Translations under genes and position numbers: made by a program | In this document: piece by piece, positions 18,661-64,000 of the stretch | Layout: each line of letters opens with the position of its first letter | Numbering within the stretch: position 1 is the stretch's first letter | DNA from: a virus | IMG/VR virus record: IMGVR_UViG_3300028840_004184 | Location: 64,001 to 128,000 of that record | Reading direction: 5' to 3' (one strand) | DNA: 64,000 bases | The notes under the pieces: generated by a model | Database searches by the model: none | What the model was told of the DNA's origin: nothing | What the model saw: the letters and a program-made list of their open reading frames with translations, nothing else

Positions 18661-18678
18661 TTTTTTCGAAAAAATAAC

Positions 18679-19137: not shown

Positions 19138-19161
19138 ATTTTTATTGAGATATTTTATAAC

Positions 19162-19238
19162 GGGGGTGTAGTTCAGGTAGTTAGAACGCCAGCCTGTCAC
19201 GTTGGAGGTCGAGGGTGCGATGCCCTTCATCCCCGCCA
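19162..19238 (+). tRNA. tRNA-Asp(GTC)
   Basis: Cloverleaf, loop CTGTCAC, GCCA end. Confidence 0.92.
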
Positions 19239-19284
19239 CTTATTTCTTTGTTATGGAGGAATGAGCCTTAAATGAACGATATAT

Positions 19285-19359
19285 GGGCGAATAGTGTTAA
19301 CGGGAGCATACTAGATTTGCACTCTAGGGGTTGGGGTTCAACTCCCCATTTGTCCACCA
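19285..19359 (+). tRNA. tRNA-Ala(TGC)
   Basis: Loop TTTGCAC, G3-U70 identity pair, ACCA. Confidence 0.9.
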
Positions 19360-19446
19360 ACACTCAGTCGCCGTGGGGCTTTGATAAAAAATATTGCTCT
19401 TAGGCGAAAAAATAGATTGACAAATAAGAAAGATGTAGTATGATTA

Positions 19447-19522
19447 CTAGGGTTAACTCAGTTTGGTAGAGTACTGGCCTTGGACGCCAGGAGCGTAGGT
19501 TCAAATCCTACACCTTAGACCA
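19447..19522 (+). tRNA. tRNA-Pro(TGG)
   Basis: Cloverleaf, loop CTTGGAC, ACCA. Confidence 0.9.
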
Positions 19523-19531
19523 AAATTATTC

Positions 19532-19639
19532 TTCCTTGCTGGGTCGTCTAATATGGTAGGACGCCAGTGACTCCTGTGGGGCGGAGCCTGCTCCGTAAAC
19601 TGGAAATGGTGGTTCGATTCCACCACCGTCATGGAGGAA
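19532..19639 (+). ncRNA. tRNA-like RNA with a 30-nt structured anticodon loop, no CCA
   Basis: D arm GTCT-AATATGGT-AGGAC, CCAGT/ACTGG stem, T arm GGTGG-TTCGATT-CCACC. Confidence 0.55.
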
Positions 19640-19659
19640 TCTTTTAAGCTTAAGTTATA

Positions 19660-20199
19660 TTGTATTGGATTTGTGTTATGATATATTTAAGTGAAAAGCA
19701 ACGAAAAAACAAACGCATTATATTAGAGGAAATCAAACCTGTTGATTGTCAGGTGTGTTTTTTCCATGACGTATCTCATTTGCCGTTTAGTGGTTATCCT
19801 ATGCGTTCGAGTTATTATGATGAAATTAATAAGATAGCTTTCGTGTATACGGCTGAAGCGACCAACCGTCATATTTTGTATTCGTTACTACATGAGGTAT
19901 GTCATCACATTACATGGGACAAGAGATGGGATAGGCGTAAGTTTAGACGAGATGAATGGGGGGAGTGGAGACCTAGCCATCCTACATATTATTTGCGAGA
20001 ATATAAAGCAGAGAAGTTATTGCGAAAAATATGTAGACGATATGGATGGCATGAATTACTACAAGAGTCGGATATGTTATTAACAAAACATTTATTAAAT
20101 AAAACAAAAGATACTGAAAGACAATATACATATTCTTGTAAACGTATAGTAAGAGAAGAAAAACGAGACATAGCTCAGATGGTTAGAGCGTTCGGCTGA
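19660..20199 (+). CDS. HExxH zinc-metallopeptidase-like protein
   Basis: SLLHEVCHH...REYKAE; 3' end overlaps tRNA-Ile. Confidence 0.65.
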   Translation: MYWICVMIYLSEKQRKNKRIILEEIKPVDCQVCFFHDVSHLPFSGYPMRSSYYDEINKIAFVYTAEATNRHILYSLLHEVCHHITWDKRWDRRKFRRDEWGEWRPSHPTYYLREYKAEKLLRKICRRYGWHELLQESDMLLTKHLLNKTKDTERQYTYSCKRIVREEKRDIAQMVRAFG

Positions 20200-20240
20200 T
20201 AACCGAAAGGGCGTAGGTTCAATTCCTACTGTCTCGACCA
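20164..20240 (+). tRNA. tRNA-Ile(GAT)
   Basis: Canonical cloverleaf, ACCA. Confidence 0.93.
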
Positions 20241-20275
20241 ACACTCAAGCGGCGTGGGCCTTATGGAGAAAATAG

Positions 20276-21055
20276 ATGATAAGAAAGTGTGATAAATGCG
20301 GATCTAACCTTGTTGAGTTGATTACATCGTGGGTTTGCCCTAACAGTTGCAACAAGGTGGACACCCCCTTGAAATCCCCCGGTGACTGGGGATCCGAAAT
20401 AGAACGTGACACCTTCTACCAGGACTTGCTTAAGGAGCAATGCAAAAACTGCGTCAACGAAGGAGATCATGATAATTGTTGTGGCAACGCTTGTGATGAA
20501 ATACCGTGTCCTGGATTTGAGAAAATGCCTGTAAAGAAGTCTATTACAGAACAGTCAATGATGCAACCAGTAGATATAACACAAAGCGGTTGTTTGAGTG
20601 GGCTAAAGAAGCCGCAGACAAAAATGTCATTAAAACAAGATCTCCATAAGCGGCAAGAAGATAAGTCCGCGTCGCTCTGTTCGATGGGTGTTTGGCGATG
20701 TGGATGTGGTAAGTTTCCTATACTCAAAAGCGAACCGGATGAAGAGGGAGATTTATTTTGGTTTTCATGTTGTGATATAGTTTCTTTTAATACGTCAGAT
20801 CTTAAATTGGCAGTTTTGCGATGGAATAATCTCCTTAAGCAGAAGGAGGGGTGGGAAAGACTAGGTGAAGTAGATCACATCGAAATAAACGATGGAAATA
20901 AAATTGTTATACATACTAAAAAGAACAATTTTCATATGAATGAGGATCAAATAATAAGTGATATGTCGGAAAAAGATTGTCCAAATAGTATAAAAAACAT
21001 ATTTCTTTATTATCAACAAAAGCATAATATATATAGATTTGAAATTATACCATGA
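20276..21055 (+). CDS. Multi-Zn-ribbon protein (LITS tag + internal Lar-like segment)
   Basis: CDKCGSNLVELITSWVC; CGCG...FSCC...AVLRWN. Confidence 0.65.
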   Translation: MIRKCDKCGSNLVELITSWVCPNSCNKVDTPLKSPGDWGSEIERDTFYQDLLKEQCKNCVNEGDHDNCCGNACDEIPCPGFEKMPVKKSITEQSMMQPVDITQSGCLSGLKKPQTKMSLKQDLHKRQEDKSASLCSMGVWRCGCGKFPILKSEPDEEGDLFWFSCCDIVSFNTSDLKLAVLRWNNLLKQKEGWERLGEVDHIEINDGNKIVIHTKKNNFHMNEDQIISDMSEKDCPNSIKNIFLYYQQKHNIYRFEIIP

Positions 21056-21141
21056 GTCGAACATATAAAGATACTAAAAGGCGTAGAGATGAAGCAGACG
21101 CACAGAAACAGATAAACGAATATAATCCCGAGCGGGAATAA

Positions 21142-21414
21142 TTGCTGCTTTGCAGCACTAAAATGTTAAATATTTACCGAGCGGTAATATCTAGTTGTTT
21201 TTATTATCATAAACACAAATGTATTATATGTGATGAGATTAATATAGTGGCCGTGCATCATTTTGATTTTAATAATAAAAATAATGAACCGGATAATTTA
21301 ATACCAATGTGCCCAACGCATCATCAATATATGCATAGTAGATTTAGGGAACTAATAGATAAAAAAGTTATTGAATATAGGCAGAGCTTCTTAAAGAAAT
21401 TTCGGAGCACATAA
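21142..21414 (+). CDS. HNH endonuclease fragment, probably truncated
   Basis: CIIC...VHHFDFNNKNNEPDNLIPMCPTHH; weak TTG start, no N-terminal domain. Confidence 0.6.
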   Translation: MLLCSTKMLNIYRAVISSCFYYHKHKCIICDEINIVAVHHFDFNNKNNEPDNLIPMCPTHHQYMHSRFRELIDKKVIEYRQSFLKKFRST

Positions 21415-21417
21415 AAA

Positions 21418-21639
21418 ATGGGAATGTATGATGAAATCAAGGTGCCTTGTCCTGAATGTGGTACAATTCATCTTGCCCAATCTAAGGGCGGCGATTGTAC
21501 ACTGGCACTTTATACGTTAAACGAAGCACCGACAGACGTATTACTTGATGTAAACAGACATGGTCCATTCCAATGTGAAAGGTGCTGTACAAGATTTGCT
21601 GTTAAAATACATTGTGTAGCTCAGGTTGTAAAAGAATAA
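21418..21639 (+). CDS. Small Zn-ribbon protein
   Basis: MGMYDEI..CPECG...QSK pattern. Confidence 0.7.
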   Translation: MGMYDEIKVPCPECGTIHLAQSKGGDCTLALYTLNEAPTDVLLDVNRHGPFQCERCCTRFAVKIHCVAQVVKE

Positions 21640-21656
21640 TTTGCGTAGCAATAGCA

Positions 21657-21730
21657 GGACATATCGTATAATGGTATTATGTGTGGCTTACATCCACAAG
21701 ACGGTGGTTCGATTCCATCTATGTCCACCA
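21657..21730 (+). tRNA. tRNA-Val(TAC)
   Basis: Cloverleaf, loop CTTACAT, ACCA. Confidence 0.9.
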
Positions 21731-21767
21731 ATGCTCAATCGCCGCAAGGCTTGTTAAGGATATTATT

Positions 21768-21944
21768 ATGAAAACAAAATTAAAAATTGTGATTGAATAT
21801 GAAGCAGATCCCGAGGATTATGATACCGAAGATCCAAAGAAAATGGCTGAAATTGATGAGAGTAATTTTAGAGAAGACCCACCATCTTTGATGGAAATGT
21901 TATGTGATTTAGAAGATATTAAAGTTAAAGTGGAGCCAGCATAG
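21768..21944 (+). CDS. Small acidic protein
   Basis: AAGGA SD; ATG downstream of tRNA-Val. Confidence 0.65.
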   Translation: MKTKLKIVIEYEADPEDYDTEDPKKMAEIDESNFREDPPSLMEMLCDLEDIKVKVEPA

Positions 21945-21946
21945 TC

Positions 21947-22405
21947 ATGCAAACTTTTCTCCCGTACCGCGACTTTGAAAAATCGGCTAAATGTCTCGAT
22001 TATCGTCGGCTCGGTAAACAAAGAGTTGAGGCAAAACAGATCCTTAATGTTCTCCTGGGAAGGACAAATAAAAAGGGTTGGCGTAATCATCCATGCGTGA
22101 CAATGTGGCGTGATTATGAACTTGCTTTACAAGAATATTATAATATGATTCTGAAAGAATGGATAAGGCGTGGATATAAAAATAATATGGAATTTGAGTA
22201 TACTTCATATTATAAACATGGTATACTGAGGGTATATCAAGAACCATATACTAATCCTTATTATTGTAAGCCAGAATGGCTCAATAAGACATTCTGTGCC
22301 TCTCATCGTTCTAATCTGCTCCGTAAAGATCCTGAGTGGTATGGACGATTTGAGTGGGAAGAACCAAATAATTTACCGTACATTTGGCCCATTCAGTCAG
22401 CGTGA
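21947..22405 (+). CDS. Pyrimidine-dimer DNA glycosylase-like protein (MSMEG_6728 family, DenV-related)
   Basis: MQTFLPY.DF..SA..LD.RRLGKQRVEA.QI, GW.NHP...MW, SHRSNLLRKDP.WY, LPY.WP. Confidence 0.9.
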   Translation: MQTFLPYRDFEKSAKCLDYRRLGKQRVEAKQILNVLLGRTNKKGWRNHPCVTMWRDYELALQEYYNMILKEWIRRGYKNNMEFEYTSYYKHGILRVYQEPYTNPYYCKPEWLNKTFCASHRSNLLRKDPEWYGRFEWEEPNNLPYIWPIQSA

Positions 22406-22430
22406 GCCTTTTTTGTTTATGGAGTAAAAT

Positions 22431-22625
22431 ATGATTGATCCCCAAATTAAAGAATGGATCGACGGTGCTAATATTGAAATGTTGTTGAGGAAATGGAGGT
22501 TCGCAAGGTCTGGTGATCCATATTTCCAAGGAGAAGCCGGAAAGTATTATTCTGAAGTTATGGCCAAGAAACGAAATGAAGACCCGGCGGCTTATACTCG
22601 GGCTAGCAAGAATATTGGATGGTAA
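22431..22625 (+). CDS. Small conserved phage protein
   Basis: 'LLRKWRFA..GDP.FQGE.G.Y...ASK.IGW'; GGAG SD. Confidence 0.7.
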   Translation: MIDPQIKEWIDGANIEMLLRKWRFARSGDPYFQGEAGKYYSEVMAKKRNEDPAAYTRASKNIGW

Positions 22626-22649
22626 TAAGTTATTTTTGGAGACAATGAA

Positions 22650-23114
22650 ATGAAAACTACGGCTATAGTAACCCTGGCGATATTTATGTTCATAATAGGA
22701 TACGGAGCCTTACATTGTATTATGATAGAACGGGTGAAAGATAATGCAGTTGAAGACTATCGTAGATCGGCGGGTATGATAAGTTTTGATGATGAAGGTC
22801 CTAAGAAAACGGCATGTAAATGGGGCTGGGATATGGAGGCTGATCTTATCGAGACTCCTCATGGTAATCACAAGTTGATACTTAATGCAACTATTACCAA
22901 AGAACCCTGTGGAGAGCCCACGTTCACATTTTTTGTCTTTTTCTTTGGTTCTGATAATCAGATACTAGGGACTAGGAAAATTGTACGTCCTTGTGATAGT
23001 CCTGTGCAGTTATGGATTCCACGAAACACAGCGTATATACTAGTTTGCGGTGAGGGTAAATGTGGTAAATGCGGAAGCGAAGTGTTGAATGCGGCATTGT
23101 TGGAAATAGAATAA
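22650..23114 (+). CDS. Membrane-anchored/exported beta-rich protein
   Basis: N-terminal TM, Cys pairs. Confidence 0.65.
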   Translation: MKTTAIVTLAIFMFIIGYGALHCIMIERVKDNAVEDYRRSAGMISFDDEGPKKTACKWGWDMEADLIETPHGNHKLILNATITKEPCGEPTFTFFVFFFGSDNQILGTRKIVRPCDSPVQLWIPRNTAYILVCGEGKCGKCGSEVLNAALLEIE

Positions 23115-23120
23115 TCAAGA

Positions 23121-23197
23121 GTTGACCATGGTGTAGATAGTTAACATATCGGATTGTGACTCCGGGGTCAGCGGGGCGGAACCGCTTGGTCAACCCA
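23121..23197 (+). tRNA. tRNA-His(GTG)
   Basis: Encoded G-1:C73, loop TTGTGAC, CCA. Confidence 0.88.
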
Positions 23198-23236
23198 CAT
23201 AACTTCGTTATGAAGAAAGTCGTAGTTTAAAAATTG

Positions 23237-23329
23237 GGAGGGTTGTCGGAGCGGTCAATCGAGGCGGATTTGAAATCCGTTGGTCAGTTTAAAGCTGGCA
23301 CGGGGGTTCGAATCCCTCACCCTCCTCCA
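23237..23329 (+). tRNA. tRNA-Ser(TGA)
   Basis: Long variable arm, loop TTTGAAA, CCA. Confidence 0.92.
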
Positions 23330-23342
23330 AACTTTAAATAAA

Positions 23343-23433
23343 AGTCCATGGCGAAGTGGCAGACGTGTTATTTCATGGTGGGCGTCGGGAGCCGTTAACC
23401 GATAGCTGTTGGTTCGAATCCAGCCCATGGACT
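23343..23433 (+). ncRNA. tRNA-like RNA without a canonical anticodon arm
   Basis: 9-bp AGTCCATGG/CCATGGACT closing stem, D-like GGCGAAGTGGCAGACG, T arm GTTGG-TTCGAAT-CCAGC. Confidence 0.55.
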
Positions 23434-23456
23434 GTTTTTAAAATGGATAACTTCCC

Positions 23457-23756
23457 ATGGATGATAAAATAAAAATACTAAGATGGTGGAATAAAAATGA
23501 AGCCGAAGTAATAAAAGAATACCATATTGCTGTACGGGTTACAAGAACTAAATCTGGTAAACGACATAGGTATGATGTATGTGCTCAAGACGATGATCCG
23601 AACTTAGCGGGGTGGAATTTTATTAGTATATATCTTCCTCACGATCAGGATGAAGAGGCGAAAAAGAAAGCTATTGAAAAAATTAAAGGCATGGTTCGGT
23701 GTGGTTCTCCTGACATACATATGATAAGAAATGATATCGAGGAACATAAATCATGA
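23457..23756 (+). CDS. Hypothetical protein
   Basis: ORF in operon. Confidence 0.6.
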   Translation: MDDKIKILRWWNKNEAEVIKEYHIAVRVTRTKSGKRHRYDVCAQDDDPNLAGWNFISIYLPHDQDEEAKKKAIEKIKGMVRCGSPDIHMIRNDIEEHKS

Positions 23757-23962
23757 AACCCAGCAAAAAATCTGAAGGTATTGAGGATTTCCTAGATCGT
23801 TTTGGCGAAGTCGCATACGGAAGAGGCCGTATAGAATCAATTGAAAATGATATCTGTATAAAATGTGGTCAACCAGCCAAAGTTTTTCGCGACGATCTTT
23901 CCCGTAGGGAATATACGATTTCTGGTCTTTGCCAAAAGTGTCAGGATAAGATATTTAAGTAG
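23753..23962 (+). CDS. Small Zn-binding phage protein
   Basis: 'C..CG....FRD.LS.REY.ISGLCQ.CQD.IF'. Confidence 0.75.
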   Translation: MKPSKKSEGIEDFLDRFGEVAYGRGRIESIENDICIKCGQPAKVFRDDLSRREYTISGLCQKCQDKIFK

Positions 23963-24048
23963 GGGTGGCGGAATAATAGACGCAGCCCGATTATGGGTGG
24001 CTATTTTGATCAAATAGTGTGTAGGTGTGAATCCTACCCTCTACACCA
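23959..24048 (+). tRNA. Leu-like class II tRNA with truncated (4-6 nt) anticodon loop
   Basis: GTAGGGG/CCTCTAC acceptor, A73-CCA, long variable arm, anticodon arm GCCCG-ATTA-TGGGT. Confidence 0.6.
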
Positions 24049-24082
24049 AAACTTAGACGCCGTTAGGCTTTGAAATAGAGAC

Positions 24083-24167
24083 GGGCGGGTACCCAAGCGG
24101 CAAAGGGGTGTGGCTGTAGACCACATGGCTAACGCCTACGTTGGTTCGAGTCCAACTCCGCCCACCA
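24083..24167 (+). tRNA. tRNA-Tyr(GTA)
   Basis: Class II cloverleaf, ACCA. Confidence 0.93.
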
Positions 24168-24180
24168 ACATAACTTCGTT

Positions 24181-24390
24181 ATGGAGAAAGAAAAAATGCG
24201 ACTAAGTGAGTTGATTAATGTATTACTAGAAGTACAGAGAGATTGTAAAAATGATCCCGATTATCCTGATGATCCCCCCGTAGAGATTTGTCAAGCAATT
24301 AGTACAAATATAGGATCGGTAGAGAGATCAAGATATTATAATCACAGGACGGACGGAAAAGATCCAATTGTTATGATACATGAAGCATGA
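24181..24390 (+). CDS. Small hypothetical protein
   Basis: ORF after tRNA-Tyr; start may be the second ATG. Confidence 0.55.
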   Translation: MEKEKMRLSELINVLLEVQRDCKNDPDYPDDPPVEICQAISTNIGSVERSRYYNHRTDGKDPIVMIHEA

Positions 24391-24407
24391 AGGTCGATAA
24401 ACATAGT

Positions 24408-24493
24408 GGCTCCGTGGGGGAAATTAGCAGACCCGTATCGCTTAAGACGATATGCCCTAGGGCGTTCCAGTGCAAGTCTGGACGGAGCTACCA
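24408..24493 (+). tRNA. tRNA-Leu(TAA)
   Basis: Class II cloverleaf, loop CTTAAGA, ACCA. Confidence 0.88.
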
Positions 24494-24534
24494 AAACATA
24501 AATACCGCTACAGACTTTTGCGGAGCATATACTA

Positions 24535-25155
24535 ATGGGAATGTCACGATCAGAAGCTGGTAAGCTTGGTGCTAAGAAAGTTAATCCGGCACAAAGACAA
24601 AGAGCGATAAACAAATACTACAAAAGTCCATCTATTTGTAAATATTGTGGTAAAGTTATACGAATCAAAAATAAGGAAAAAGCATCTTATGTTAAAAGAA
24701 AGAAATTTTGTAATAGATCATGTTTAATGAGATACATAAACGCGTTACATGTTCGGCAAAGCGATAAACGAAATTGTTTACAATGCGACAAGGTAATACC
24801 AGCGAGACAGAAATACTGCTCTTTGAAATGTCAGCAATTATATAAAAAAATAAAAAGATTCAACGATATAGACGAAAGACAAGATGCTGATGGGTATGGT
24901 AATAAAACTATTAAGTCATATTTGTTATATAAATATGGTTATAAATGCTCTATATGTAATAATACTGTGTGGATGGACAAACAAATCCCCTTAGTTATGG
25001 ACCACGTAGATGGTAATCCATACAATAATAAGATCAATAACTTAAGGCTGGTCTGTGGTAACTGTGATATGCAGTTACCAACGTATAAGTCAAAAAATAG
25101 AGGAAGTGGTCGTCATTATAGACGACTAAGATATAAACAAGACAAAAGCTATTAG
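24535..25155 (+). CDS. HNH homing endonuclease in the tRNA array
   Basis: FCNRSC/YCSLKC repeats; MDHVDGNPYNNKINNLRLVCGNC. Confidence 0.88.
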   Translation: MGMSRSEAGKLGAKKVNPAQRQRAINKYYKSPSICKYCGKVIRIKNKEKASYVKRKKFCNRSCLMRYINALHVRQSDKRNCLQCDKVIPARQKYCSLKCQQLYKKIKRFNDIDERQDADGYGNKTIKSYLLYKYGYKCSICNNTVWMDKQIPLVMDHVDGNPYNNKINNLRLVCGNCDMQLPTYKSKNRGSGRHYRRLRYKQDKSY

Positions 25156-25228
25156 CCTGCATAGTTTAATGGTAAAACCTCGGTTTTGTAATCCGAATTT
25201 CGGCGTTCGATTCGTCGTGCAGGCTCCA
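25155..25228 (+). tRNA. tRNA-Thr(TGT)
   Basis: Cloverleaf, loop TTTGTAA, TCCA. Confidence 0.88.
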
Positions 25229-25258
25229 TGTATTTTTCTTTGTTATGGAGGTGTTAAA

Positions 25259-25465
25259 ATGGTTAACTTCAGTAACGTAAGGGATGTCGGCAGAATTCTT
25301 GCTCTTAGAGAGAGAGCATACCGCAGGTCTAATCGTGAAAAATCATTACAGCCTCGTCATAGCAAACATTGGTGTCCGTCTTGTGACGGAGCTATAATTG
25401 GTGCTGGTAGCAAATGTCCTAGATGTGGAAAGCGTATTTCGCCGAGACGGCTGAAAAAGGAATAA
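25259..25465 (+). CDS. Small basic Zn-ribbon protein
   Basis: GGAGGT SD; CPSC...CPRC. Confidence 0.65.
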   Translation: MVNFSNVRDVGRILALRERAYRRSNREKSLQPRHSKHWCPSCDGAIIGAGSKCPRCGKRISPRRLKKE

Positions 25466-25488
25466 TGCTACGCAGGCTAAAATTTTAC

Positions 25489-25579
25489 GGAAGGGTGGCC
25501 GAGTTGGCTTATGGCACCGTCCTGCTAAGGCGGAGGGGTATAATAGCCCCCGCAAGTTCGAATCTTGTCCCTTCCTCCA
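25489..25579 (+). tRNA. tRNA-Ser(GCT)
   Basis: Class II cloverleaf, CCA. Confidence 0.92.
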
Positions 25580-25608
25580 TGCTCAATCGCCGCAAGGCTT
25601 ACAGTTGA

Positions 25609-25790
25609 TCTTTGAATATTTATAAGCAAGAGGACTAGGGGCGAGAATCCGTATAATTCAATTCTTAGCCAGGACGTTCGGAGCATGTAAAATGCAGCAC
25701 CGCCTAGTATGAGTTTGCGGATACATATACAGCAACTCTGGTGATAGTTGCTCTGTGAAATCTAACAGAAAAGGCCGTAATATTCAAAGA
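25609..25790 (+). ncRNA. Candidate structured ncRNA (~180 nt)
   Basis: Perfect 12-bp closing stem TCTTTGAATATT/AATATTCAAAGA; internal ACTAGG/CCTAGT and AGCAACT/AGTTGCT helices. Confidence 0.5.
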
Positions 25791-25822
25791 CTTGATTAAT
25801 TTTAACTAAGGAGCAATTTATC

Positions 25823-26209
25823 ATGTTTAACTTTCTAATTTATCTGTTGATTACATTTAGTTCTTTTATAATGCAAGATCCTGGGCCTGGTCCGCAGGTT
25901 TGTGTACTGGAGGGGTGTATTGATCTTGTCACTGTTGATTATGGTGATGGACTATACGGCCTTGAAGTCTATTCAAGGGGTAGTTCCAGCTTGAATCACG
26001 GGGTCTCTATGGAGATTTATTGGTATGTTTTTGACATGTTCGGGAAACTTGTGGGGCTTGGTCGTGATCTTATTCCGTATTGGTATGACGAGAGAGAATT
26101 AATCCCTTTGGTGGCTGGTCAACACGTATATATCGAACTAAGAGTGATTTGTTGGAAATGTAAGATCGATACGTGGGCTTATGCGGATACTAAGATACCT
26201 CCATTTTAA
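25823..26209 (+). CDS. Exported beta-rich protein
   Basis: Signal peptide, AAGGAG SD, C-terminal CxxC. Confidence 0.7.
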   Translation: MFNFLIYLLITFSSFIMQDPGPGPQVCVLEGCIDLVTVDYGDGLYGLEVYSRGSSSLNHGVSMEIYWYVFDMFGKLVGLGRDLIPYWYDERELIPLVAGQHVYIELRVICWKCKIDTWAYADTKIPPF

Positions 26210-26274
26210 ACTCAGGTGGCGTTGGCCTTATATTGTATTGTTTTAAAGGCACAAAAAATTGTGCGTAGCACAAT

Positions 26275-26361
26275 GGCATCCTGGCGAAATGGCAGACGCG
26301 GTAGGTTCAAAACCTGCTACCACGTAGTGGTGTCCCGGTTCAAGTCCGGGGGGTGCCACCA
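26275..26361 (+). tRNA. tRNA-Leu(CAA)
   Basis: Class II cloverleaf, ACCA. Confidence 0.92.
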
Positions 26362-26399
26362 TATTCAGTTGCCGCAGGGCTTAGAAAAGGAAAGATAAC

Positions 26400-26555
26400 A
26401 TGAGTGAAGATGAAATAGTCGAATGTCCCGAGTGTGGTTTTCAGCAGCTAGATCCTGGTAAAGGAGTTGCTTGTGAAGAATGCGGACATTATCCCCTTGT
26501 TTCTCTTAAGGAGATCGAGAAGCAGGACAAAGAGTGGAGAAAAGGCAATGGCTAG
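26400..26555 (+). CDS. 51-aa Zn-ribbon protein (below the ORF-track cutoff)
   Basis: MSEDEIVECPECG...CEECG, AAGGA SD. Confidence 0.55.
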   Translation: MSEDEIVECPECGFQQLDPGKGVACEECGHYPLVSLKEIEKQDKEWRKGNG

Positions 26556-26745
26556 ATGTAATTATTGCAATTTTGTAAGTATTAGAGAAGAGCATAAGAA
26601 TAGTGATAAGACGGTGACTTTAACACCAGACAATCACGTATATGTACACCCTAAAGAGATTATTATTGCTGATTTGTCAAAGGAGGAAAGGGAAAAATAC
26701 TTTGTGGCCTGGTTTATGGAGTTGCCTAATTATTGTTGTTGCTAA
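26548..26745 (+). CDS. Small Cys-containing protein
   Basis: GGAG SD, MARCNYC. Confidence 0.6.
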   Translation: MARCNYCNFVSIREEHKNSDKTVTLTPDNHVYVHPKEIIIADLSKEEREKYFVAWFMELPNYCCC

Positions 26746-26746
26746 A

Positions 26747-26823
26747 GCGGGTGTAGTTTAGTCGAATAGAACACCTCGCTACGAACGAGGAGGTCGGGGG
26801 TTTAAGTCCTCCCACCCGCACCA
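26747..26823 (+). tRNA. tRNA-Arg(ACG)
   Basis: Cloverleaf, loop CTACGAA, ACCA. Confidence 0.9.
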
Positions 26824-26832
26824 TTGAAGCTC

Positions 26833-26930
26833 GATAAGAGATTGTCAGAGCCCGTTGTACAGGCTTGATTCGGTGGACGTGGTGACCGAATGACTATGAT
26901 ACAAGGAAGCAACCTTGCAGTTATCTTATC
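26833..26930 (+). ncRNA. Candidate four-way-junction RNA between tRNAs
   Basis: GATAAGA/TCTTATC closing stem with three hairpins. Confidence 0.45.
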
Positions 26931-26951
26931 CATACAGCATTATTTTTATGT

Positions 26952-27036
26952 GGGAGAGTGGCGTAACTGGTAGCCGCGTATGGTTTAGGACCATATGTCG
27001 AAAGGCGTGCAGGTTCGAGTCCTGTCTCTCCTACCA
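26952..27036 (+). tRNA. tRNA-Leu(TAG)
   Basis: Class II cloverleaf, ACCA. Confidence 0.93.
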
Positions 27037-27078
27037 ACACTCATGCTTCGCTGGCGTGGGCCTTATTAGGGGTATATT

Positions 27079-27300
27079 ATGACCAGGAAAGAATTTAGTG
27101 AAGTGCTTCGTGATTTATCTCCCGTTGTTTACGATGGTATGTTGGCTGGGGGTATGTCGCTGCCTAAAATAGCACAGGCTGTTGCCCTGGACTGTTTTTT
27201 ATATAGGTCGGGAGAAGTAGACAGTATTATGCAGAGAACACTGCGTGGGTATTTACAAAACCTAGATAAGACTGGCGTCTTTGGATTTGATAAAGAATAG
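27079..27300 (+). CDS. Hypothetical protein
   Basis: SD + ORF. Confidence 0.6.
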   Translation: MTRKEFSEVLRDLSPVVYDGMLAGGMSLPKIAQAVALDCFLYRSGEVDSIMQRTLRGYLQNLDKTGVFGFDKE

Positions 27301-27301
27301 A

Positions 27302-27375
27302 GAGGCTATGGTGTAGTGGTAACACGTCAGGTTTTCAGCCTGAGGTCGAGAGTTCGATTCTCTCTAGCCTTACCA
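27302..27375 (+). tRNA. tRNA-Glu(TTC)
   Basis: Cloverleaf, loop TTTTCAG, ACCA. Confidence 0.9.
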
Positions 27376-27396
27376 ACTTAAGAAGAATATGATATA

Positions 27397-28011
27397 ATGA
27401 GAATTCCTGATATTTTGATAAAAGATCTTAATAGCCTAAGTCCAGGCAATCGTGTTTTGAGATTAAGGGGATTGTCGTCATATTATCGAAACCCAAGATA
27501 TTGTTTGTTTTGTAACAAAGTTATTAATGCTGTACCTGGAGTACGTCTTGCACGCACAAAGGCAAAAAAGTTTTGTAACCAAAGATGTGCTGCATTATAC
27601 AATAATAAGCGTAAGCTGTCTAATGAGTGTTTGTATTGTGGTAAATCAATATATAAGTATCGTAAATACTGTTCTCATAAGTGTGTTCAAGAGCATAAAT
27701 ATAGAACATATATCGGTAAATGGCTTAGCGGTAAAGTAAGTGGTATAAAAGGCAAGGACAGCATATCTAATTATATCAGACGTTGGTTAATTGATAAATA
27801 TAACAATCGATGCGTTAAGTGTGGATGGAGTGTAAAAAATAGATATACGAATAAAGTCCCTCTACAAATTAATCACATCGATGGTAATTGGAAAAACAAC
27901 AAGTCCGAGAATTTAGAGCTTGTATGTCCTAATTGTCATTCATTAACACCTAATTATGGTGGTAGAAATAAAGGAAAAGGACGACCATATAGGTATAAAA
28001 TGCGAGTATAA
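27397..28011 (+). CDS. HNH homing endonuclease in the tRNA array
   Basis: FCNQRC/YCSHKC; LQINHIDGNWKNNKSENLELVCPNCHS. Confidence 0.9.
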   Translation: MRIPDILIKDLNSLSPGNRVLRLRGLSSYYRNPRYCLFCNKVINAVPGVRLARTKAKKFCNQRCAALYNNKRKLSNECLYCGKSIYKYRKYCSHKCVQEHKYRTYIGKWLSGKVSGIKGKDSISNYIRRWLIDKYNNRCVKCGWSVKNRYTNKVPLQINHIDGNWKNNKSENLELVCPNCHSLTPNYGGRNKGKGRPYRYKMRV

Positions 28012-28075
28012 TTCAATGGTAGAAAGTCACCCTTCCAAGGTGGATATGCCGGTTCGAATCCGGCTACTCGCTCCA
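28002..28075 (+). tRNA. tRNA-Gly(TCC)
   Basis: Cloverleaf, U73-CCA. Confidence 0.92.
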
Positions 28076-57441: not shown

Positions 57442-57645
57442 TTAGTCGTTTGGATCTACCTCACTGACGCCCTCGCCCTTTACCTGATCTTTAATCCTCT
57501 CTACGAGAATATACCACCAGTCTTTTTGGCTTCTATCAGACAAGCTGTTTATAAATTTAAAACCCGCCTCCTCTATAGAATCATTTTCATAAGGACACAA
57601 AAAGCCTGCTTTGTGGCGAAGCCTATCTTTTTTCTTCTTTTTCAA
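57442..57645 (-). CDS. Hypothetical protein
   Basis: 4-nt overlap with the DHH gene. Confidence 0.55.
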   Translation of the reverse strand: MKKKKKDRLRHKAGFLCPYENDSIEEAGFKFINSLSDRSQKDWWYILVERIKDQVKGEGVSEVDPND

Positions 57646-58517
57646 TTGGTTGTTCCATTTCCATCGAATAAAGTAAAAGGAGTTTCCTTACACTGAAAGC
57701 CAGATGCCCCCTTATGTCCGCCACCGCCGTGCTTTTTGGCGATATCCCCAACATTTACATCACCCTTCGTAGAATACATGGTCACAACCCAGTGTTTGCC
57801 ATTCTTGTTATAATAAACCATCATTGCATCATGTTTGTCGGGATCATACACAGAGTCGAACAACTTGGACCCAGGCATACAGGCGTTCGCCGCTATGAAA
57901 CGAAGGCCCTCAAATTCGAACTCATAACACAGTGGACCACACAAGAATTCGTTTTGTTTATTAACATACTTTTGAATTGTACGACCTTCACTGACAATAT
58001 CCATAACAAGCGTATAAGAAGGCAGCATTTTGTTACCATCAAACAATATATGCCACAAACGATCGTCATCTTCCGGATTCGTGTCTCGTTGCTTGATGCC
58101 ATACTGAAACGGCAGTACGTCCATGTCTTTATGATCCCAAACGTCATACCTACCCAACAGAAAGACAGAGCGAGGCATTACTTGGTTAGGGAACAGATAT
58201 TGCCACGTAAGTTCACATGCCGCGAATTTCGTATCACGTATACCGGCTATAGCAATTTCGAATGCATTGACGCCGTTTATAGCTGTTTCGTGATGATCAA
58301 TCCAAACCAAGTCACAATGATTAAACAATGTGATCATATCTTCGTGTGGCTGCAAGGAAAAATCGACCATAAAGACAATTTCGCCTTCTGTAATAGAATC
58401 CCACGGAAATTCTTCTCCGTAATCCATGCCGATCATTTCGCATTCTGGATATTTATGTTTGACAATTGCACCAGCACAGTGGCCGTCAAGGTCTGTTGAA
58501 TGATAAAAACATTTCAT
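57642..58517 (-). CDS. DHH/DHHA1 phosphoesterase (nanoRNase NrnB-like)
   Basis: YH..DLDG, VDFS, WIDHH, YDVW, GGGGH.GASGF. Confidence 0.92.
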   Translation of the reverse strand: MKCFYHSTDLDGHCAGAIVKHKYPECEMIGMDYGEEFPWDSITEGEIVFMVDFSLQPHEDMITLFNHCDLVWIDHHETAINGVNAFEIAIAGIRDTKFAACELTWQYLFPNQVMPRSVFLLGRYDVWDHKDMDVLPFQYGIKQRDTNPEDDDRLWHILFDGNKMLPSYTLVMDIVSEGRTIQKYVNKQNEFLCGPLCYEFEFEGLRFIAANACMPGSKLFDSVYDPDKHDAMMVYYNKNGKHWVVTMYSTKGDVNVGDIAKKHGGGGHKGASGFQCKETPFTLFDGNGTTN

Positions 58518-60692: not shown

Positions 60693-60855
60693 TGAAGTCT
60701 CCGAATATATTACTAAACATACCAGAAGTCATCATCGCTGCTTGAACTTTACGTATAAGGTCTTCAAGCCTTGCCCTGTGTGTAGGATCTCGTGTCACAC
60801 TAAATTCGATGCTAAGCTTCTCGTTAAACGTTTTTAATGTTTGTCTGATGTTCAT
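60679..60855 (-). CDS. Small hypothetical protein
   Basis: GGAG SD before MNIRQ. Confidence 0.5.
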   Translation of the reverse strand: MNIRQTLKTFNEKLSIEFSVTRDPTHRARLEDLIRKVQAAMMTSGMFSNIFGDFNGKV

Positions 60856-60877
60856 ATGGCTCCATAATGAAAAAAAT

Positions 60878-60976
60878 AGCGGAGATTGATGCATCTATAA
60901 CGGTGCTCTCTGCCATCAAGTGGCAGCAGCATTCCCGGCTTAATAGGCAATAGAAGGAAGATGCAATATAGCCGCT
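60878..60976 (-). ncRNA. CUUCCUU-bulge RNA motif, copy A
   Basis: AGCGG-CTAT-ATTGCAT-CTTCCTT-CTA...TAG-ATGCATC-AATCT-CCGCT. Confidence 0.75.
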
Positions 60977-60985
60977 CATATTAAC

Positions 60986-61041
60986 AGAGGTAATTATAAC
61001 ACCTAAATTTATCTTTAGAAGGAAGATGTTATATAGCCTCT
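60986..61041 (-). ncRNA. CUUCCUU-bulge RNA motif, copy B
   Basis: AGAGG-CTAT-ATAACAT-CTTCCTT-CTA...TAG-GTGTTAT-AATTA-CCTCT. Confidence 0.75.
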
Positions 61042-61073
61042 TTTTTATTATATAAAGTAGCCTTTATATTTCA

Positions 61074-61147
61074 GGTCGGTCGGGGACAAGATTCGATACT
61101 TGTCATATCGGGGATCAGCCGCAGTTTATCTTAACCTACCCGCCGAG
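61074..61147 (-). ncRNA. tRNA-mimic RNA
   Basis: TCGG-CGGG/CCCG-A-CCGA acceptor, short D arm, 3-bp anticodon stem, ACAAG-TATCGAAT-CTTGT T arm. Confidence 0.5.
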
Positions 61148-61170
61148 TTTGTTTGTTATCAAGGATCATC

Positions 61171-63333
61171 TTACAAAAACTCTCCCATAATAACATCATC
61201 ATCAAAATGAGTTACTACACGAGCACCTTCTTTAAGAGGCAGGGAGTTCACGTCGTCAACGACAGTAAATATGGTGTCGGCTTCTTCGATACTGACGAGT
61301 TCGCCGCGAGCCTCTACGTGTAAATTGAATAGATCGAAGAGAGTGGGTTTTACACAGATGAAGTTAGACATAGCTTTGCCCATGGCGATCATGCCTCTCT
61401 GGTTACTCTCGACGTTGTTCCCGCTCCACGAAGGTCTTTTCTTAAGAGCAAGATCGGTCCAAATCACCTTATTATTTTTAAGGTCTATAATCATAGGAAT
61501 ACAGATGCGAGTATTGGCGGTTAGATCGATTTTGTTTTCTACCGTCTTGGGCTCGTAAATTTCTCCGGAGCCAGGTTCTTCTCTGCTCATCCAACCCATA
61601 AAACATTCAGGGACCTTACAGAATGGCTGACCGCTATATGAAAGTACCGACCATACGATGTAACGAACACCATATCGTCTAGCGGACTCGATATCTATAT
61701 CAATGAATTCGCTTGCTCCATTGGGAGCATTAGTAATATCTCCGCTATGACATGCTTTATAAGCGTTTGACCTTATGCGTGTATATGATATATGCTCCTT
61801 ATAATTCCAGTCGTCGTCGTATAGAACAGCGGACGAATCAATATCAACGCGATTACTAGCGGATATGTTTTTCCAATGGATAAAGCTGCGTAAGGTTTTC
61901 ATATTTTCCGGCATATCCACCTGTGATCCACGAGTAATGGTCCGGAATGCACCGCTTGCCGACCTCTGAGAAAATGGAACGAGGTAGCTAGCAAGCCTTT
62001 CGTCGATATGTACGTTACCTAGACTACCCCTTTCCTTAAATATTGTACATAGTGCTTTATCGCACACTGTTACTACTCTTTGACAAATATCATCATCAAT
62101 CTCGGGCAGATGATTATCCATACTAAAGGCTTTAGCTATTGTTCTTTTGGGGAAAAACACCCTTGTATTATGCTCAAGGCTATTCCTGCCGCGAAAATGA
62201 GCCATAACCTGTAGCAACACCGGGACGGAGACCTTGCTGGCTACGGCAGCAAATCGAGCAATTATATTGCCGGGCCTCGCGGTCATTCTCATTAAATGAT
62301 CGAGTCTACGGGCGAATTCTCCCGGCCTCTGCTTAAGGAGATCGGCCGCCACGCGGGTTTCCCCTTGTGACAGGGCTGTTTCGACCTTACCATTAAAAGT
62401 CTTGATTTTCCTATGATTGTTACGGAGATTCCAGAAAGCACTATAAGCCTTTTCAAAACGCCCTTTATAATCACCAGGATGTAATTTTTCACCAAGACGA
62501 ATCCATTTCATGGTGTAACGCTTCATGTCTTCTTCAAGAAGCCCACACGCATGCTCTAATAGACCAAGTAGTAGTTTTCTTTCTGAGCGATTGAAATTAC
62601 GATAATTGGTGTTGGTAGCAAGACTTATATCACCATCTGACATGGATGTTGCCAGCCTCAAAACGTCGGTAGCTGTTTTGAAATAAGGTTTTAGAAACGT
62701 TATAGCGGCATCGTCAACCTGAATATTTTCAAGAACACACTTTGAAACCAGGGCTACGTTTTCTTTAAGAGGAATGGCATCAGGCAATAGTCGTTCAAGA
62801 TCATTTTTGTAGTATTCGACGTACCACATTACGTCAGTCTTATCGGTTTCCGACAGAGAAGTTTTTGAGTTGATTAGATTTTGTCCTATCTCCACAAACT
62901 CTTTTTCTGTACCTAGACCAATACCCTTGGGCTTGTGTGTTTCTAAAGACGGAAATCTTTCTTTGACTTCATATTCTGGAATCCATTCGCCGAAAGTCAG
63001 ATAGTGAAAAATGGCATTAATGTAAAGTTCAGCTTCAACCATTTCCATTACTTGCTGGGGGAAATTGGGATACATGGGTTTGTGACGAACGTTGGCACCC
63101 ACCATCTTTTTAAGGTTTGCGGCTATGTTCACGTAAAAAGTTTTAGCCTGATCGATGGATAATGTCCTTAGGGCGTTAACTAGATCTTTTGAGAAAGTAA
63201 AACCAAGGTTTTCGATATTACGCATCATAGTTGCGATGTACTGATCGGGAAGACAGTTGCTTTTGAACATTCTACTGGTTCCAGTGGGAATAAACACCTT
63301 TAGTTTTCTTCTCAGATAAATTTCGTTTCTCAT
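61171..63333 (-). CDS. 720-aa protein: large helical N-terminal region + C-terminal TerD-like domain
   Basis: 'HKPMYPNFPQQVM', 'TATDVLRLA', 'RPGEFARRLDHL'; TerD motifs 'VDIDSSAVLYD', 'HSGDITNAPNGASEFIDID'. Confidence 0.85.
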   Translation of the reverse strand: MRNEIYLRRKLKVFIPTGTSRMFKSNCLPDQYIATMMRNIENLGFTFSKDLVNALRTLSIDQAKTFYVNIAANLKKMVGANVRHKPMYPNFPQQVMEMVEAELYINAIFHYLTFGEWIPEYEVKERFPSLETHKPKGIGLGTEKEFVEIGQNLINSKTSLSETDKTDVMWYVEYYKNDLERLLPDAIPLKENVALVSKCVLENIQVDDAAITFLKPYFKTATDVLRLATSMSDGDISLATNTNYRNFNRSERKLLLGLLEHACGLLEEDMKRYTMKWIRLGEKLHPGDYKGRFEKAYSAFWNLRNNHRKIKTFNGKVETALSQGETRVAADLLKQRPGEFARRLDHLMRMTARPGNIIARFAAVASKVSVPVLLQVMAHFRGRNSLEHNTRVFFPKRTIAKAFSMDNHLPEIDDDICQRVVTVCDKALCTIFKERGSLGNVHIDERLASYLVPFSQRSASGAFRTITRGSQVDMPENMKTLRSFIHWKNISASNRVDIDSSAVLYDDDWNYKEHISYTRIRSNAYKACHSGDITNAPNGASEFIDIDIESARRYGVRYIVWSVLSYSGQPFCKVPECFMGWMSREEPGSGEIYEPKTVENKIDLTANTRICIPMIIDLKNNKVIWTDLALKKRPSWSGNNVESNQRGMIAMGKAMSNFICVKPTLFDLFNLHVEARGELVSIEEADTIFTVVDDVNSLPLKEGARVVTHFDDDVIMGEFL

Positions 63334-63360
63334 CTTAGTTCGTCCTTATAATAAATAAAA

Positions 63361-63443
63361 AAGGAAATTGACGCCTCTAATAAGGTAGCTCCCAAAGCTA
63401 CTGGCGAATCGCCAGTGATAGAAGGAAGAAGCGTCGTGGCCTT
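63361..63443 (-). ncRNA. CUUCCUU-bulge RNA motif, copy C
   Basis: AAGG-CCAC-GACGCTT-CTTCCTT-CTA...TAG-AGGCGTC-AATTT-CCTT. Confidence 0.75.
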
Positions 63444-63457
63444 AAAATTTTTAAAGC

Positions 63458-63528
63458 AGCAGGAAATTTTCCTATCTAATAACAATATAATGAATAGTTT
63501 TTAGAAGGAAGATAAGATGTAGTCTGCT
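63458..63528 (-). ncRNA. CUUCCUU-bulge RNA motif, copy D
   Basis: AGCAGA-CTAC-ATCTTAT-CTTCCTT-CTA...TAG-ATAGGAA-AATTT-CCTGCT. Confidence 0.75.
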
Positions 63529-63535
63529 TGTTTTT

Positions 63536-63563
63536 ATTATATACAATTTTCCAAGAAAGTCAA
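63536..63563 (-). promoter_or_regulatory. Sigma70-type promoter of the RNA/TerD-like locus
   Basis: TTGACT-N16-TATAAT; predicted start about at the 5' end of copy D. Confidence 0.75.
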
Positions 63564-63581
63564 GTAAAAAATCTAGAAATA

Positions 63582-64000
63582 TTATGAAGTAGTTACTGGT
63601 ATAATACCTCCGACCATCATTTGAGCCTTACAGGTAGTACACTTAACTTTACATGTGAATTTAAGACCTTTGGTTACATCATAGTCGCTTGGGTTTACTT
63701 TGTCATTCCACCATCCAGCAGCTTCTTCATCAGGCAGAGTTTGGCTACCGCCGTGATTACCTAGTTCTCCATCAGCGGTTCGATCATCATTGAAAATACA
63801 TGTCCAGTCGCCTTCACCGTCTTTGGCGTCAGGGTCCCATGCGAAAATTTTCCAGTAATATATCCATTTTGGATTGTCACATAGTTGGACGCAATTAAAG
63901 CTGGCCGTCCATACAAAACCCTCTCCGTATACCAGAGGATTAGGATCTAGTATCATCTCTTTTCTATTCCACGCACACATTTTAACTTGTGGGTTCGGAT
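63582..64000 (-). CDS. Beta-rich Cys-containing protein (5' end outside the window)
   Basis: Frame is open to the window edge; C-terminal CxxC. Confidence 0.6.
   Translation of the reverse strand, partial: PNPQVKMCAWNRKEMILDPNPLVYGEGFVWTASFNCVQLCDNPKWIYYWKIFAWDPDAKDGEGDWTCIFNDDRTADGELGNHGGSQTLPDEEAAGWWNDKVNPSDYDVTKGLKFTCKVKCTTCKAQMMVGGIIPVTTS

What the first reader, a model, noticed from the sequence alone, without database searches (positions are those of the whole stretch)
60878..63563. Candidate new ribonucleoprotein system: 720-aa TerD-domain protein bracketed by four covarying small RNAs
Seen: four non-identical copies (56-99 nt) of one fold on the minus strand, two directly upstream (63361-63443, 63458-63528) and two downstream (60878-60976, 60986-61041) of the gene. 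Each reads P1 - CYAY/AAUYW internal loop - P2 (about 7 bp) - invariant 7-nt bulge CUUCCUU - CUA/UAG stem - variable apical insert. P1 and P2 differ in sequence between copies but stay paired (ATAACAT/GTGTTAT, GACGCTT/AGGCGTC, TGCAT/ATGCA, TCTTAT/ATAGGA), i.e. covariation within one genome. Each pair sits just downstream of a TATATAATAAAAAA -10 element. Established: Ro60/TROVE proteins are helical rings whose genes lie next to Y RNAs that have a conserved bulged protein-binding stem and a variable loop. Inference: the helical N-terminal ~450 aa binds the conserved bulged stem while the variable inserts act as interchangeable effector or guide modules, giving a Ro60/Y-RNA-like RNP with TerD in place of vWA, perhaps for RNA repair or counter-defence. 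I do not recognise this RNA as a named family.
Basis: partly seen in the sequence, partly recalled or inferred. Interest (0 to 1): 0.93.

Follow-up and report, generated by a model that had tools for sequence, protein, structure and literature searches.

The report
Handle RNAs paired with Ro60-shaped TerD protein
Four small folded RNAs flanking an unstudied 720-residue phage gene belong to a widespread RNA family, absent from Rfam, that occurs almost only beside this one protein family in bacteria and phages, so the pair is probably an undescribed RNA-protein particle built on the plan of Ro60 and its Y RNAs.

Summary
All four copies sit at the stated coordinates on the minus strand. A covariance model built almost entirely from bacterial examples finds exactly these four in the 170-kb phage genome.

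The RNA is a 60-100-nt "handle": a 6-bp P1, an internal loop (CUA / UUU), a 10-bp P2, then an apical loop opening with invariant UUCCUUCUA and closing with UAG. Over 132 distinct sequences, 97.7% of cells pair.

It matches no Rfam 15 family. It lies next to homologues of the 720-aa protein in 84 of 86 loci from at least five bacterial phyla. It also lies next to phage homologues only about 26% identical.

In 101 Paenibacillaceae genomes, all 25 with the protein have the RNA, and 75 of 76 without the protein lack it.

Binding and function are inferred, not shown. Neighbouring tRNA- and RNA-repair genes point to RNA repair or surveillance. The "guide module" idea and the "7-nt bulge" detail are not supported.

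This scan has already reported the same RNA-protein pairing in at least eight other genomes.

The parts
63536..63563 (-). Sigma-70-type promoter-like site (TTGACT-16-TATAAT) placing a transcription start a few bases before RNA A
   Evidence: 11 of 12 matches; sequence
63458..63528 (-). Handle RNA copy A (71 nt, short AU-rich apical loop)
   Evidence: R1 44.4 bits, E 6e-10; fold z -2.3
63359..63445 (-). Handle RNA copy B (87 nt; apical insert of two hairpins). A U-run follows, then the AAGGA ribosome-binding site of the gene
   Evidence: R1 36.1 bits, E 1e-7; fold z -4.1; sequence
61171..63333 (-). 720-aa protein of PHROG 33734, named 'TerD family protein' by NCBI. Helical N-terminal part, TerD beta-sandwich, C-terminal helices
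61954..63333 (-). Residues 1-460: helical repeat region; the best long structural matches are Ro60 structures
61369..61905 (-). Residues 477-655: TerD fold
61074..61146 (-). Cloverleaf-like fold between the stop codon and the second promoter. Unsupported as a tRNA mimic; listed for completeness
   Evidence: The minimum-energy fold is a cloverleaf but z is only -1.3. No Rfam hit at E<=10. No ARAGORN call
61047..61074 (-). Second promoter-like site (CTGAAA-16-TATAAT) just before RNA C
   Evidence: 10 of 12 matches
60985..61042 (-). Handle RNA copy C (58 nt, minimal form)
   Evidence: R1 54.2 bits, E 1e-12; fold z -3.2
60877..60977 (-). Handle RNA copy D (101 nt; 54-nt structured apical insert). 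A U-run follows, then the next small gene
   Evidence: R1 37.9 bits, E 4e-8; sequence

Best explanation
The four elements are genes, or leader-embedded copies, of a small structured 'handle' RNA that is the dedicated partner of the 720-aa protein. Together they probably form a ribonucleoprotein organised like Ro60 with its Y RNAs.

Proposed working:
- The helical, Ro60-shaped part of the protein binds the conserved handle: P1, the CUA/UUU internal loop, P2 with a conserved U-G wobble, and the invariant UUCCUUCUA...UAG loop edges.
- The TerD beta-sandwich takes the place of Ro60's vWA domain as a metal- or ligand-dependent interaction module.
- The apical loop tolerates inserts.

In this phage, two sigma-70-type promoters drive A-B-gene and C-D. 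Copies next to the start codon of the gene probably also let the protein limit its own translation. This is seen most clearly in Paenibacillus, where the handle sits between the Shine-Dalgarno sequence and the AUG.

The likely field of action is repair or surveillance of tRNA or other RNA during infection.

Shown here: the RNA family, its structure, and its exclusive genomic coupling to the protein. Inferred: physical binding, autoregulation and the RNA-repair role.
For: Structure: 12 of 16 pairs carry compensatory changes in the seed. Over 132 distinct sequences 97.7% of cells pair, with a covariation score of 0.62 against 0.20 when shuffled and about 0.1 when slid.

Coupling:
- 159 R1 hits, all on the gene's strand, in 84 of 86 homologue loci. 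These come from Bacillota, Bacteroidota, Acidobacteriota, Chloroflexota, Pseudomonadota and phages.
- In four whole bacterial genomes of 5-8 Mb, the only hits are the two at the gene.
- In 101 Paenibacillaceae genomes the RNA is in 26 and the protein in 25, with 25 shared.
- Phage homologues at 26-32% identity also carry copies: the LR745208 megaphage, XacN1 and Weasels2.

More than a 5' leader:
- Copies lie downstream of the gene in Niallia and Heyndrickxia, LR745208, Weasels2 and here (C, D).
- A free-standing copy lies 1.85 kb upstream in Brevibacillus, with its own promoter-like site and U-tail.
- Orphan copies lie next to an RNA ligase gene.

Ro60 parallel: Ro60 chains are the top long structural matches. 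In the same Paenibacillus genomes, canonical Ro60 genes have a YrlA-like RNA just upstream and no R1 hit.

RNA-repair context:
- In this phage, on the same strand: a CCA-adding enzyme, a Thg1-like enzyme and a DHH phosphoesterase.
- RlaP upstream in XacN1.
- tRNA genes beside the locus in Weasels2 and the faecal phage.
- In L006, a tRNA-like RNA carrying the handle signature.

Autoregulation hint: about 30 of 59 distinct bacterial arrangements read GGAGG-[handle]-9 to 12 nt-AUG.
Against: There is no binding, expression or processing data.

Most bacterial copies (145 of 150) are upstream, and the nearest ends a median of 19 nt before the start codon. That also fits a purely cis-acting operator.

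The RNA-repair neighbours are circumstantial, because phages cluster such genes anyway. In bacteria the gene has no conserved neighbours.

One homologue locus (Bacillus toyonensis, L013) shows no copy.
Confidence: 0.6

Rival explanations
1. The motif is only a cis-acting operator. The protein, whose real substrate is some other RNA, binds copies in its own mRNA leader to repress or enable translation, as ribosomal-protein leaders and the ThrRS operator do. No functional RNP with these RNAs exists.
For: 145 of 150 aligned copies are upstream on the gene's strand, and the nearest ends 8-20 nt before the start codon in most loci. In about 30 arrangements the handle is inserted exactly between GGAGG and the AUG; in others a plain hairpin sits there. 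In the window, A and B lie between the only visible promoter and the gene.
Against: Copies lie downstream of the gene in several lineages and in this phage. Brevibacillus has a promoter-plus-U-tail copy 1.85 kb away. Orphan copies lie beside an RNA ligase gene with no homologue within 4 kb. Loci carry two to four copies. An autoregulatory site whose sequence stays invariant across five phyla and 26%-identical proteins implies a conserved ligand, yet no other genomic target appears in whole-genome searches.
Confidence: 0.2
2. The motif is a tandem riboswitch aptamer that senses a small molecule or ion related to the TerD domain, such as Ca2+ or a nucleoside derivative, and controls the downstream gene.
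For: The arrangement is tandem and upstream. Loop and junction nucleotides are invariant while helices covary. U-runs follow copies B and D.
Against: It is associated with a single gene family only. It also occurs downstream of the gene and as free-standing or orphan copies. The apical region beside the invariant nucleotides accepts inserts of 9 to 54 nt. No recurrent expression platform is seen, and no canonical terminator is found in the window region.
Confidence: 0.07
3. The copies are true Y RNAs (YrlA/YrlB family) and the protein is a divergent Ro60 orthologue, so this is simply a known system.
For: Ro60 chains are the best long structural matches. The RNA genes lie adjacent on the same strand, as in rsr loci (PMC4201824).
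Against: No Rfam hit at all at E<=10, including YrlA RF02553 and Y_RNA. No TROVE signal by Pfam, HMM or hhalign. TerD replaces vWA. Canonical Ro60 with a YrlA-like RNA coexists separately in the same genomes and has no R1 hit.
Confidence: 0.08

Closest known systems
Bacterial and phage Ro60 (Rsr) with Y RNAs (Yrn1, YrlA/YrlB; Rfam RF02553; Chen et al. 2014, PMC4201824; Thermus phage phiLo Ro60, PMC12135203, PDB 9l5y)
   Same: A protein of about 500-700 residues with a helical-repeat part plus a second globular domain is encoded next to one to four small structured RNAs on the same strand. Each RNA is closed by a stem formed from its 5' and 3' ends and carries a conserved protein-binding-type segment and a variable distal part. 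The system occurs in bacteria and large phages, often near RNA-repair or tRNA genes. Ro60 chains are the best long structural matches.
   Different: No sequence-level TROVE signal. A TerD beta-sandwich replaces the vWA/MIDAS domain. The RNA has a different conserved core (GGCUA...UUCCUUCUA...UAG...UUUCC rather than the GNCGAA-type motif) and no Rfam match. The four copies here have no tRNA-like domain. Both systems coexist in single genomes with separate RNAs.
TerD-family proteins of tellurite-resistance (Ter) clusters (PDB 2kxt, 3ibz, 2qz7)
   Different: Classical TerD proteins are single-domain, about 190 aa, and sit in ter operons with TerB, TerC and others. This protein is 720 aa with a large helical part, stands alone in bacterial genomes, and is tied to an RNA. 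Pfam TerD is not matched at E<=1.
NCBIfam NF041916, MXAN_6230/SCO0854 family RING domain-containing protein
   Same: Clear homology over most of the protein (E 2e-142, 476 bits). ESM Atlas structural neighbours at TM 0.86.
   Different: The score is below the equivalog cut-off of 600 bits. This protein lacks the N-terminal RING domain. No function is published for that family either.
Autoregulatory mRNA leaders with a structure between the Shine-Dalgarno sequence and the start codon (phage T4 genes 38 and 25; ribosomal-protein leaders). This comparison rests on my own knowledge, not on a tool result.
   Same: In many Paenibacillus loci the handle sits exactly between GGAGG and the AUG. Folding would bring the two together, and a bound protein would block the ribosome.
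   Different: This arrangement is absent in the phage window, where an ordinary AAGGA site follows copy B. The same RNA also occurs free-standing and downstream of the gene.

Membership tests
Ro60 / TROVE proteins | Match to the TROVE domain (Pfam PF05731) or profile-level similarity to Ro60 | tested here: not met
   No Pfam family at E<=1. A profile of the N-terminal part finds no Ro60 chain among PDB sequences. hhalign against four Paenibacillus-type Ro60 proteins gives probability 0.6%, though both alignments are shallow.
Ro60 / TROVE proteins | HEAT-like helical repeats forming a ring | tested here: inconclusive
Ro60 / TROVE proteins | C-terminal vWA domain with a MIDAS site | tested here: not met
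   The second domain is a TerD beta-sandwich.
Ro60 / TROVE proteins | Cognate small RNA encoded next to the gene and bound by the protein | tested here: inconclusive
   Adjacency and co-occurrence are met. Binding cannot be tested with these tools.
Y RNA / YrlA (Rfam RF00019, RF02553) | Match to the family covariance model | tested here: not met
   No Rfam hit at E<=10 in the window region, nor at E<=1 on the motif in 10 homologue loci. YrlA-like hits appear only beside canonical Ro60 genes.
Y RNA / YrlA (Rfam RF00019, RF02553) | tRNA-like domain in at least one RNA of the locus | tested here: not met
   ARAGORN and the Rfam tRNA model find nothing in 60800-63650. The neighbouring cloverleaf-like fold has z -1.3. 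A related jumbo-phage locus (L006) does have a tRNA-like RNA carrying the handle signature.
TerD family | TerD beta-sandwich fold | tested here: met
TerD family | Match to Pfam TerD (PF02342) | tested here: not met
   No hit at E<=1 for this protein. Two homologues carry a precomputed PF02342 hit.
Riboswitches | Aptamer in a 5' leader coupled to an expression platform, found upstream of genes related to the ligand | tested here: inconclusive
   Most copies are upstream, but downstream, free-standing and orphan copies exist. No canonical terminator is found. Ligand binding is not testable here.

The most novel reading that the evidence does not exclude
This is a second, independently evolved or extremely diverged lineage of Ro60/Y-RNA-type particles, present in thousands of bacteria from at least five phyla and in many large phages. 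A TerD-bearing ring protein uses a universal RNA handle to recruit or present RNAs for repair. Phages deploy it alongside CCA-adding, Thg1-like, RlaP and RNA-ligase enzymes to undo host nuclease attack on tRNA or rRNA. A further possibility is that the invariant pyrimidine loop UUCCUUCUA imitates the anti-Shine-Dalgarno tail of 16S rRNA. That resemblance is recalled from memory and was not tested here.
Probability: 0.3. Interest if true: 0.9.

Novelty: new variant of a known kind. Interest (0 to 1): 0.8.

Why it matters
If the pairing is a true RNP, it adds a widespread, uncatalogued structured RNA class and a partner protein family to the very short list of bacterial and phage RNA-protein particles. 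The protein family has more than 4,600 clusters at 90% identity in the search.

It would give the large 'TerD family protein / cytoplasmic protein' group its first functional handle. It would show that the Ro60/Y-RNA design (ring protein, handle RNA, variable module) exists in a second version with a different accessory domain.

It would also give phage biologists a new candidate for counter-defence against RNA-targeting host toxins.

The system is easy to test. Culturable Bacillus thuringiensis, Paenibacillus and Brevibacillus strains carry it as a single gene plus one to three RNAs.

Tried and rejected
- Rfam: a gathering scan of the whole window finds only 15 tRNAs. E<=10 scans of 60800-63650 and 61040-61180 find nothing. 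An E<=1 scan of ten homologue loci finds nothing on the motif.
- Near-identical DNA in the phage collection: none. A large structural ORF of the window also has no tblastn match, so the phage and its host remain unidentified.
- Kissing-loop pairing between tandem copies: the best complementary run averages 4.23 in real pairs, against 4.55 for mismatched loci and 4.48 for shuffled loops. Rejected.
- Guide-like inserts: blastn-short of the four apical inserts against the phage genome gives only chance matches of 11 nt or less. Rejected for self-targets; host targets could not be tested.
Left open.
- Defence-system libraries: no PADLOC match.
- Sequence-level link to Ro60: negative. The ESM Atlas gives only the protein's own superfamily.
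- Literature: searches for TerD with TROVE, Y RNA, RNP, riboswitch candidate, SCO0854 and MXAN_6230 found no description of this pairing. Three relevant papers were not held, among them Burroughs and Aravind 2016 and Sim et al. 2020. An earlier mention there cannot be excluded.
- The 750-aa proteins next to the orphan copies are not relatives of the family.
Full report
**What is in the window.** The region lies on the minus strand of a complete 170,410-bp virus record with terminal repeats, 39% G+C. The record carries 19 tRNA genes elsewhere in the window. It has no near relative in the phage collection.

Reading 5' to 3' on the minus strand:
- a near-consensus promoter-like site, TTGACT-16-TATAAT (63563-63536)
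- RNA copy A (63528-63458)
- RNA copy B (63445-63359), followed by a U-run
- an AAGGA ribosome-binding site and the 720-aa ORF (63333-61171)
- a 73-nt stretch that can fold as a cloverleaf
- a second promoter-like site, CTGAAA-16-TATAAT (61074-61047)
- RNA copy C (61042-60985)
- RNA copy D (60977-60877), followed by a U-run and then small ORFs

The exact 10-mer CTTCCTTCTA occurs only at these four places in the window. No further copy in context exists in the genome.

**The RNA is a real, conserved, structured family.** Homologues of the protein came from a faecal phage (L001), five IMG/VR contigs (L002-L006) and 80 bacterial genomes (L007-L086). Their flanks carry the same signature.

A seed of 31 short instances, only one of them from the window, gives a consensus of a 6-bp P1, CUA, a 10-bp P2, and an apical loop that starts UCCUUCUA and ends just before A-G. 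Twelve of the 16 pairs carry compensatory changes.

The covariance model R1 recovers all four window copies at 36-54 bits and nothing else in the phage genome. On the model-based alignment of 150 hits (132 distinct), 97.7% of cells pair. The covariation score is 0.62, against 0.20 for shuffles and about 0.1 for slid partners.

Invariant or nearly invariant positions are GG:CC at the inner end of P1, CUA and UUU in the internal loop, a mostly U-G wobble inside P2, and UUCCUUCUA...UAG.

The base before UUCCUU covaries with the G of UAG, whereas the alternative pairing breaks in the same four sequences.

The family has no Rfam 15 match at any threshold tried.

**Coupling to the protein.** R1 gives 159 hits in 84 of the 86 loci. 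All lie on the strand of the gene and beside it. Included are loci from Bacteroidota (L010), Acidobacteriota (L044), Chloroflexota (L049, L061, L068, L075) and Pseudomonadota (L066).

In four complete or draft genomes of 5-8 Mb, the only hits are the two next to the gene. In an even sample of 101 Paenibacillaceae genomes the RNA is found in 26 and the protein in 25. All 25 protein carriers have the RNA, usually within 10-200 nt of the gene.

The link survives very deep protein divergence:
- The 485-kb phage LR745208 (26.5% identity) has three copies after the gene.
- Xanthomonas phage XacN1 (26.5%) has three copies before it.
- Rhodococcus phage Weasels2 (32.5%) has three weak copies after it.
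- Lactobacillus phage LpeD has one or two weak copies before it.

In bacteria the gene is monocistronic with no conserved neighbours. The RNA is therefore the only constant companion.

**Is it a leader or a separate RNA?** Most bacterial copies are upstream (145 of 150). The nearest ends a median of 19 nt from the start codon.

In about 30 of 59 distinct arrangements, mainly Paenibacillus, the handle lies exactly between a GGAGG and the AUG. In others a plain hairpin sits there. At least that copy is therefore part of the mRNA. It is well placed for the protein to control its own translation. This is an inference, by analogy with split ribosome-binding sites known from phage T4, which I cite from my own knowledge.

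Other facts argue that the RNA is more than an operator:
- Copies lie downstream of the gene in Niallia and Heyndrickxia, in LR745208 and Weasels2, and here (C, D).
- A Brevibacillus copy 1.85 kb upstream starts right after a promoter-like site and ends in a U-run.
- Orphan copies in two Paenibacillaceae genomes lie about 200-240 nt after an RNA ligase gene (PF09414), with no family member within 4 kb.

**The protein.** Pfam finds nothing at E<=1. PHROGs files it under phrog_33734, function unknown. NCBIfam relates it to NF041916, the MXAN_6230/SCO0854 RING-domain family, below that model's cut-off. More than 4,600 clusters match it, and most are named 'TerD family protein' or 'cytoplasmic protein'.

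For the helical part, the three Ro60 representatives are the only long matches:

Two Paenibacillus genomes hold both a canonical Ro60 gene and the TerD-type gene. The Ro60 gene has a sub-threshold YrlA-like RNA just upstream and no R1 hit. The TerD-type gene has its R1 RNAs. These are two parallel systems with separate RNAs.

**Function.** Nothing here shows function. The context points to RNA, and especially tRNA, repair or surveillance:
- In this phage, on the same strand: a CCA-adding tRNA nucleotidyltransferase about 1 kb upstream of copy A, a Thg1-like enzyme about 11 kb upstream, and a DHH phosphoesterase 3 kb downstream.
- In XacN1, an RlaP RNA-repair nucleotidyltransferase two genes upstream.
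- tRNA or tmRNA genes beside the locus in Weasels2 and the faecal phage.
- A tRNA-like RNA whose anticodon arm holds the handle signature, right after the gene in a 389-kb phage.
- The RNA-ligase-linked orphan copies.

The idea that the variable inserts act as guides finds no support, and neither do kissing loops between tandem copies.

**Comparison and novelty.** The closest known system is Ro60 (Rsr) with Y RNAs (PMC4201824). The organisation is the same, but the defining features of membership are not met: TROVE signature, vWA domain, and the YrlA/Y RNA model. So it works like, but cannot be filed as, a Ro60/Y RNA system.

I found no paper that describes the RNA or the pairing. Three relevant papers could not be read.

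Within this scan the same pairing has been reported for at least eight other genomes. My results were obtained independently on this window and agree with those notes.

**Verdict.** This is a new variant of a known kind of system, of high interest, and it awaits a binding experiment.

Noticed in passing
window 61074-61146 (-): The stretch between the stop codon and the second promoter folds as a cloverleaf in the minimum-energy structure. The z-score is only -1.3, and neither Rfam tRNA (E<=10) nor ARAGORN recognises it.
   Followed up: partly
L106 803-2092 (-) = genome 128302-129591, just beyond the window end: A CCA-adding tRNA nucleotidyltransferase (PolyA_pol 6e-17; phrog_2244 7e-97) lies about 1 kb upstream of RNA A on the same strand. 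A Thg1-like tRNA-His guanylyltransferase lies at L106 12201-12995 and ThyX at L106 5132-5914.
   Followed up: partly
window 57642-58517 (-): A DHH/DHHA1 phosphoesterase (phrog_4771 9e-41) lies 3 kb downstream on the same strand.
   Followed up: no
window 18107-28075 (+): An array of 19 tRNA genes covering 16 amino acids (two Met, two Ser, three Leu).
   Followed up: no
L006 4524-4657 (+) (IMG/VR jumbo phage, 389 kb): Directly after the homologous gene lies a tRNA-like RNA (Rfam tRNA 55.6 bits). An insert of about 65 nt in its anticodon arm holds GGCTAT...TTCCTTCTA...ATTTCC, the handle signature in an unusual arrangement. R1 scores it at only 9 bits.
   Followed up: partly
L104 3856-4901 (-) and L105 4122-5040 (-) (Paenibacillaceae genomes G010, G053): Orphan handle RNAs lie about 200-240 nt downstream of an RNA ligase gene (PF09414). 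They are followed by a SUFU-domain protein and/or a 750-aa membrane protein. No TerD-type gene lies within 4 kb.
   Followed up: partly
L018, L031, L041, L057 and about 26 further Paenibacillus loci, positions about 1905-2003: The last handle copy is inserted exactly between a GAGAGGAGG Shine-Dalgarno sequence and the AUG, 9-12 nt after P1. Related loci such as L009 and L015 have a plain hairpin in that place.
   Followed up: partly
L020 52-160 (+) (Brevibacillus): A free-standing handle RNA lies 1.85 kb upstream of the gene. A promoter-like site TTTACA-17-TATGGT with a TG extension ends 6 nt before it, and a U-run follows it.
   Followed up: partly
L095 2475-2609 (-) and L096 649-715 (+): Canonical Ro60 (TROVE) genes in Paenibacillus genomes that also carry the TerD-type gene have sub-threshold YrlA-like hits (39.9 and 31.6 bits) directly upstream.
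   Followed up: no
L001 710-1611 (+) (faecal phage MT835874): A tmRNA gene and four tRNA genes lie just upstream of the handle RNA array and the homologous gene.
   Followed up: no
L100 128-991 (+) (Xanthomonas phage XacN1 ORF399): An RlaP RNA-repair nucleotidyltransferase (PF10127, 1e-20) lies two genes upstream of the three handle copies.
   Followed up: no
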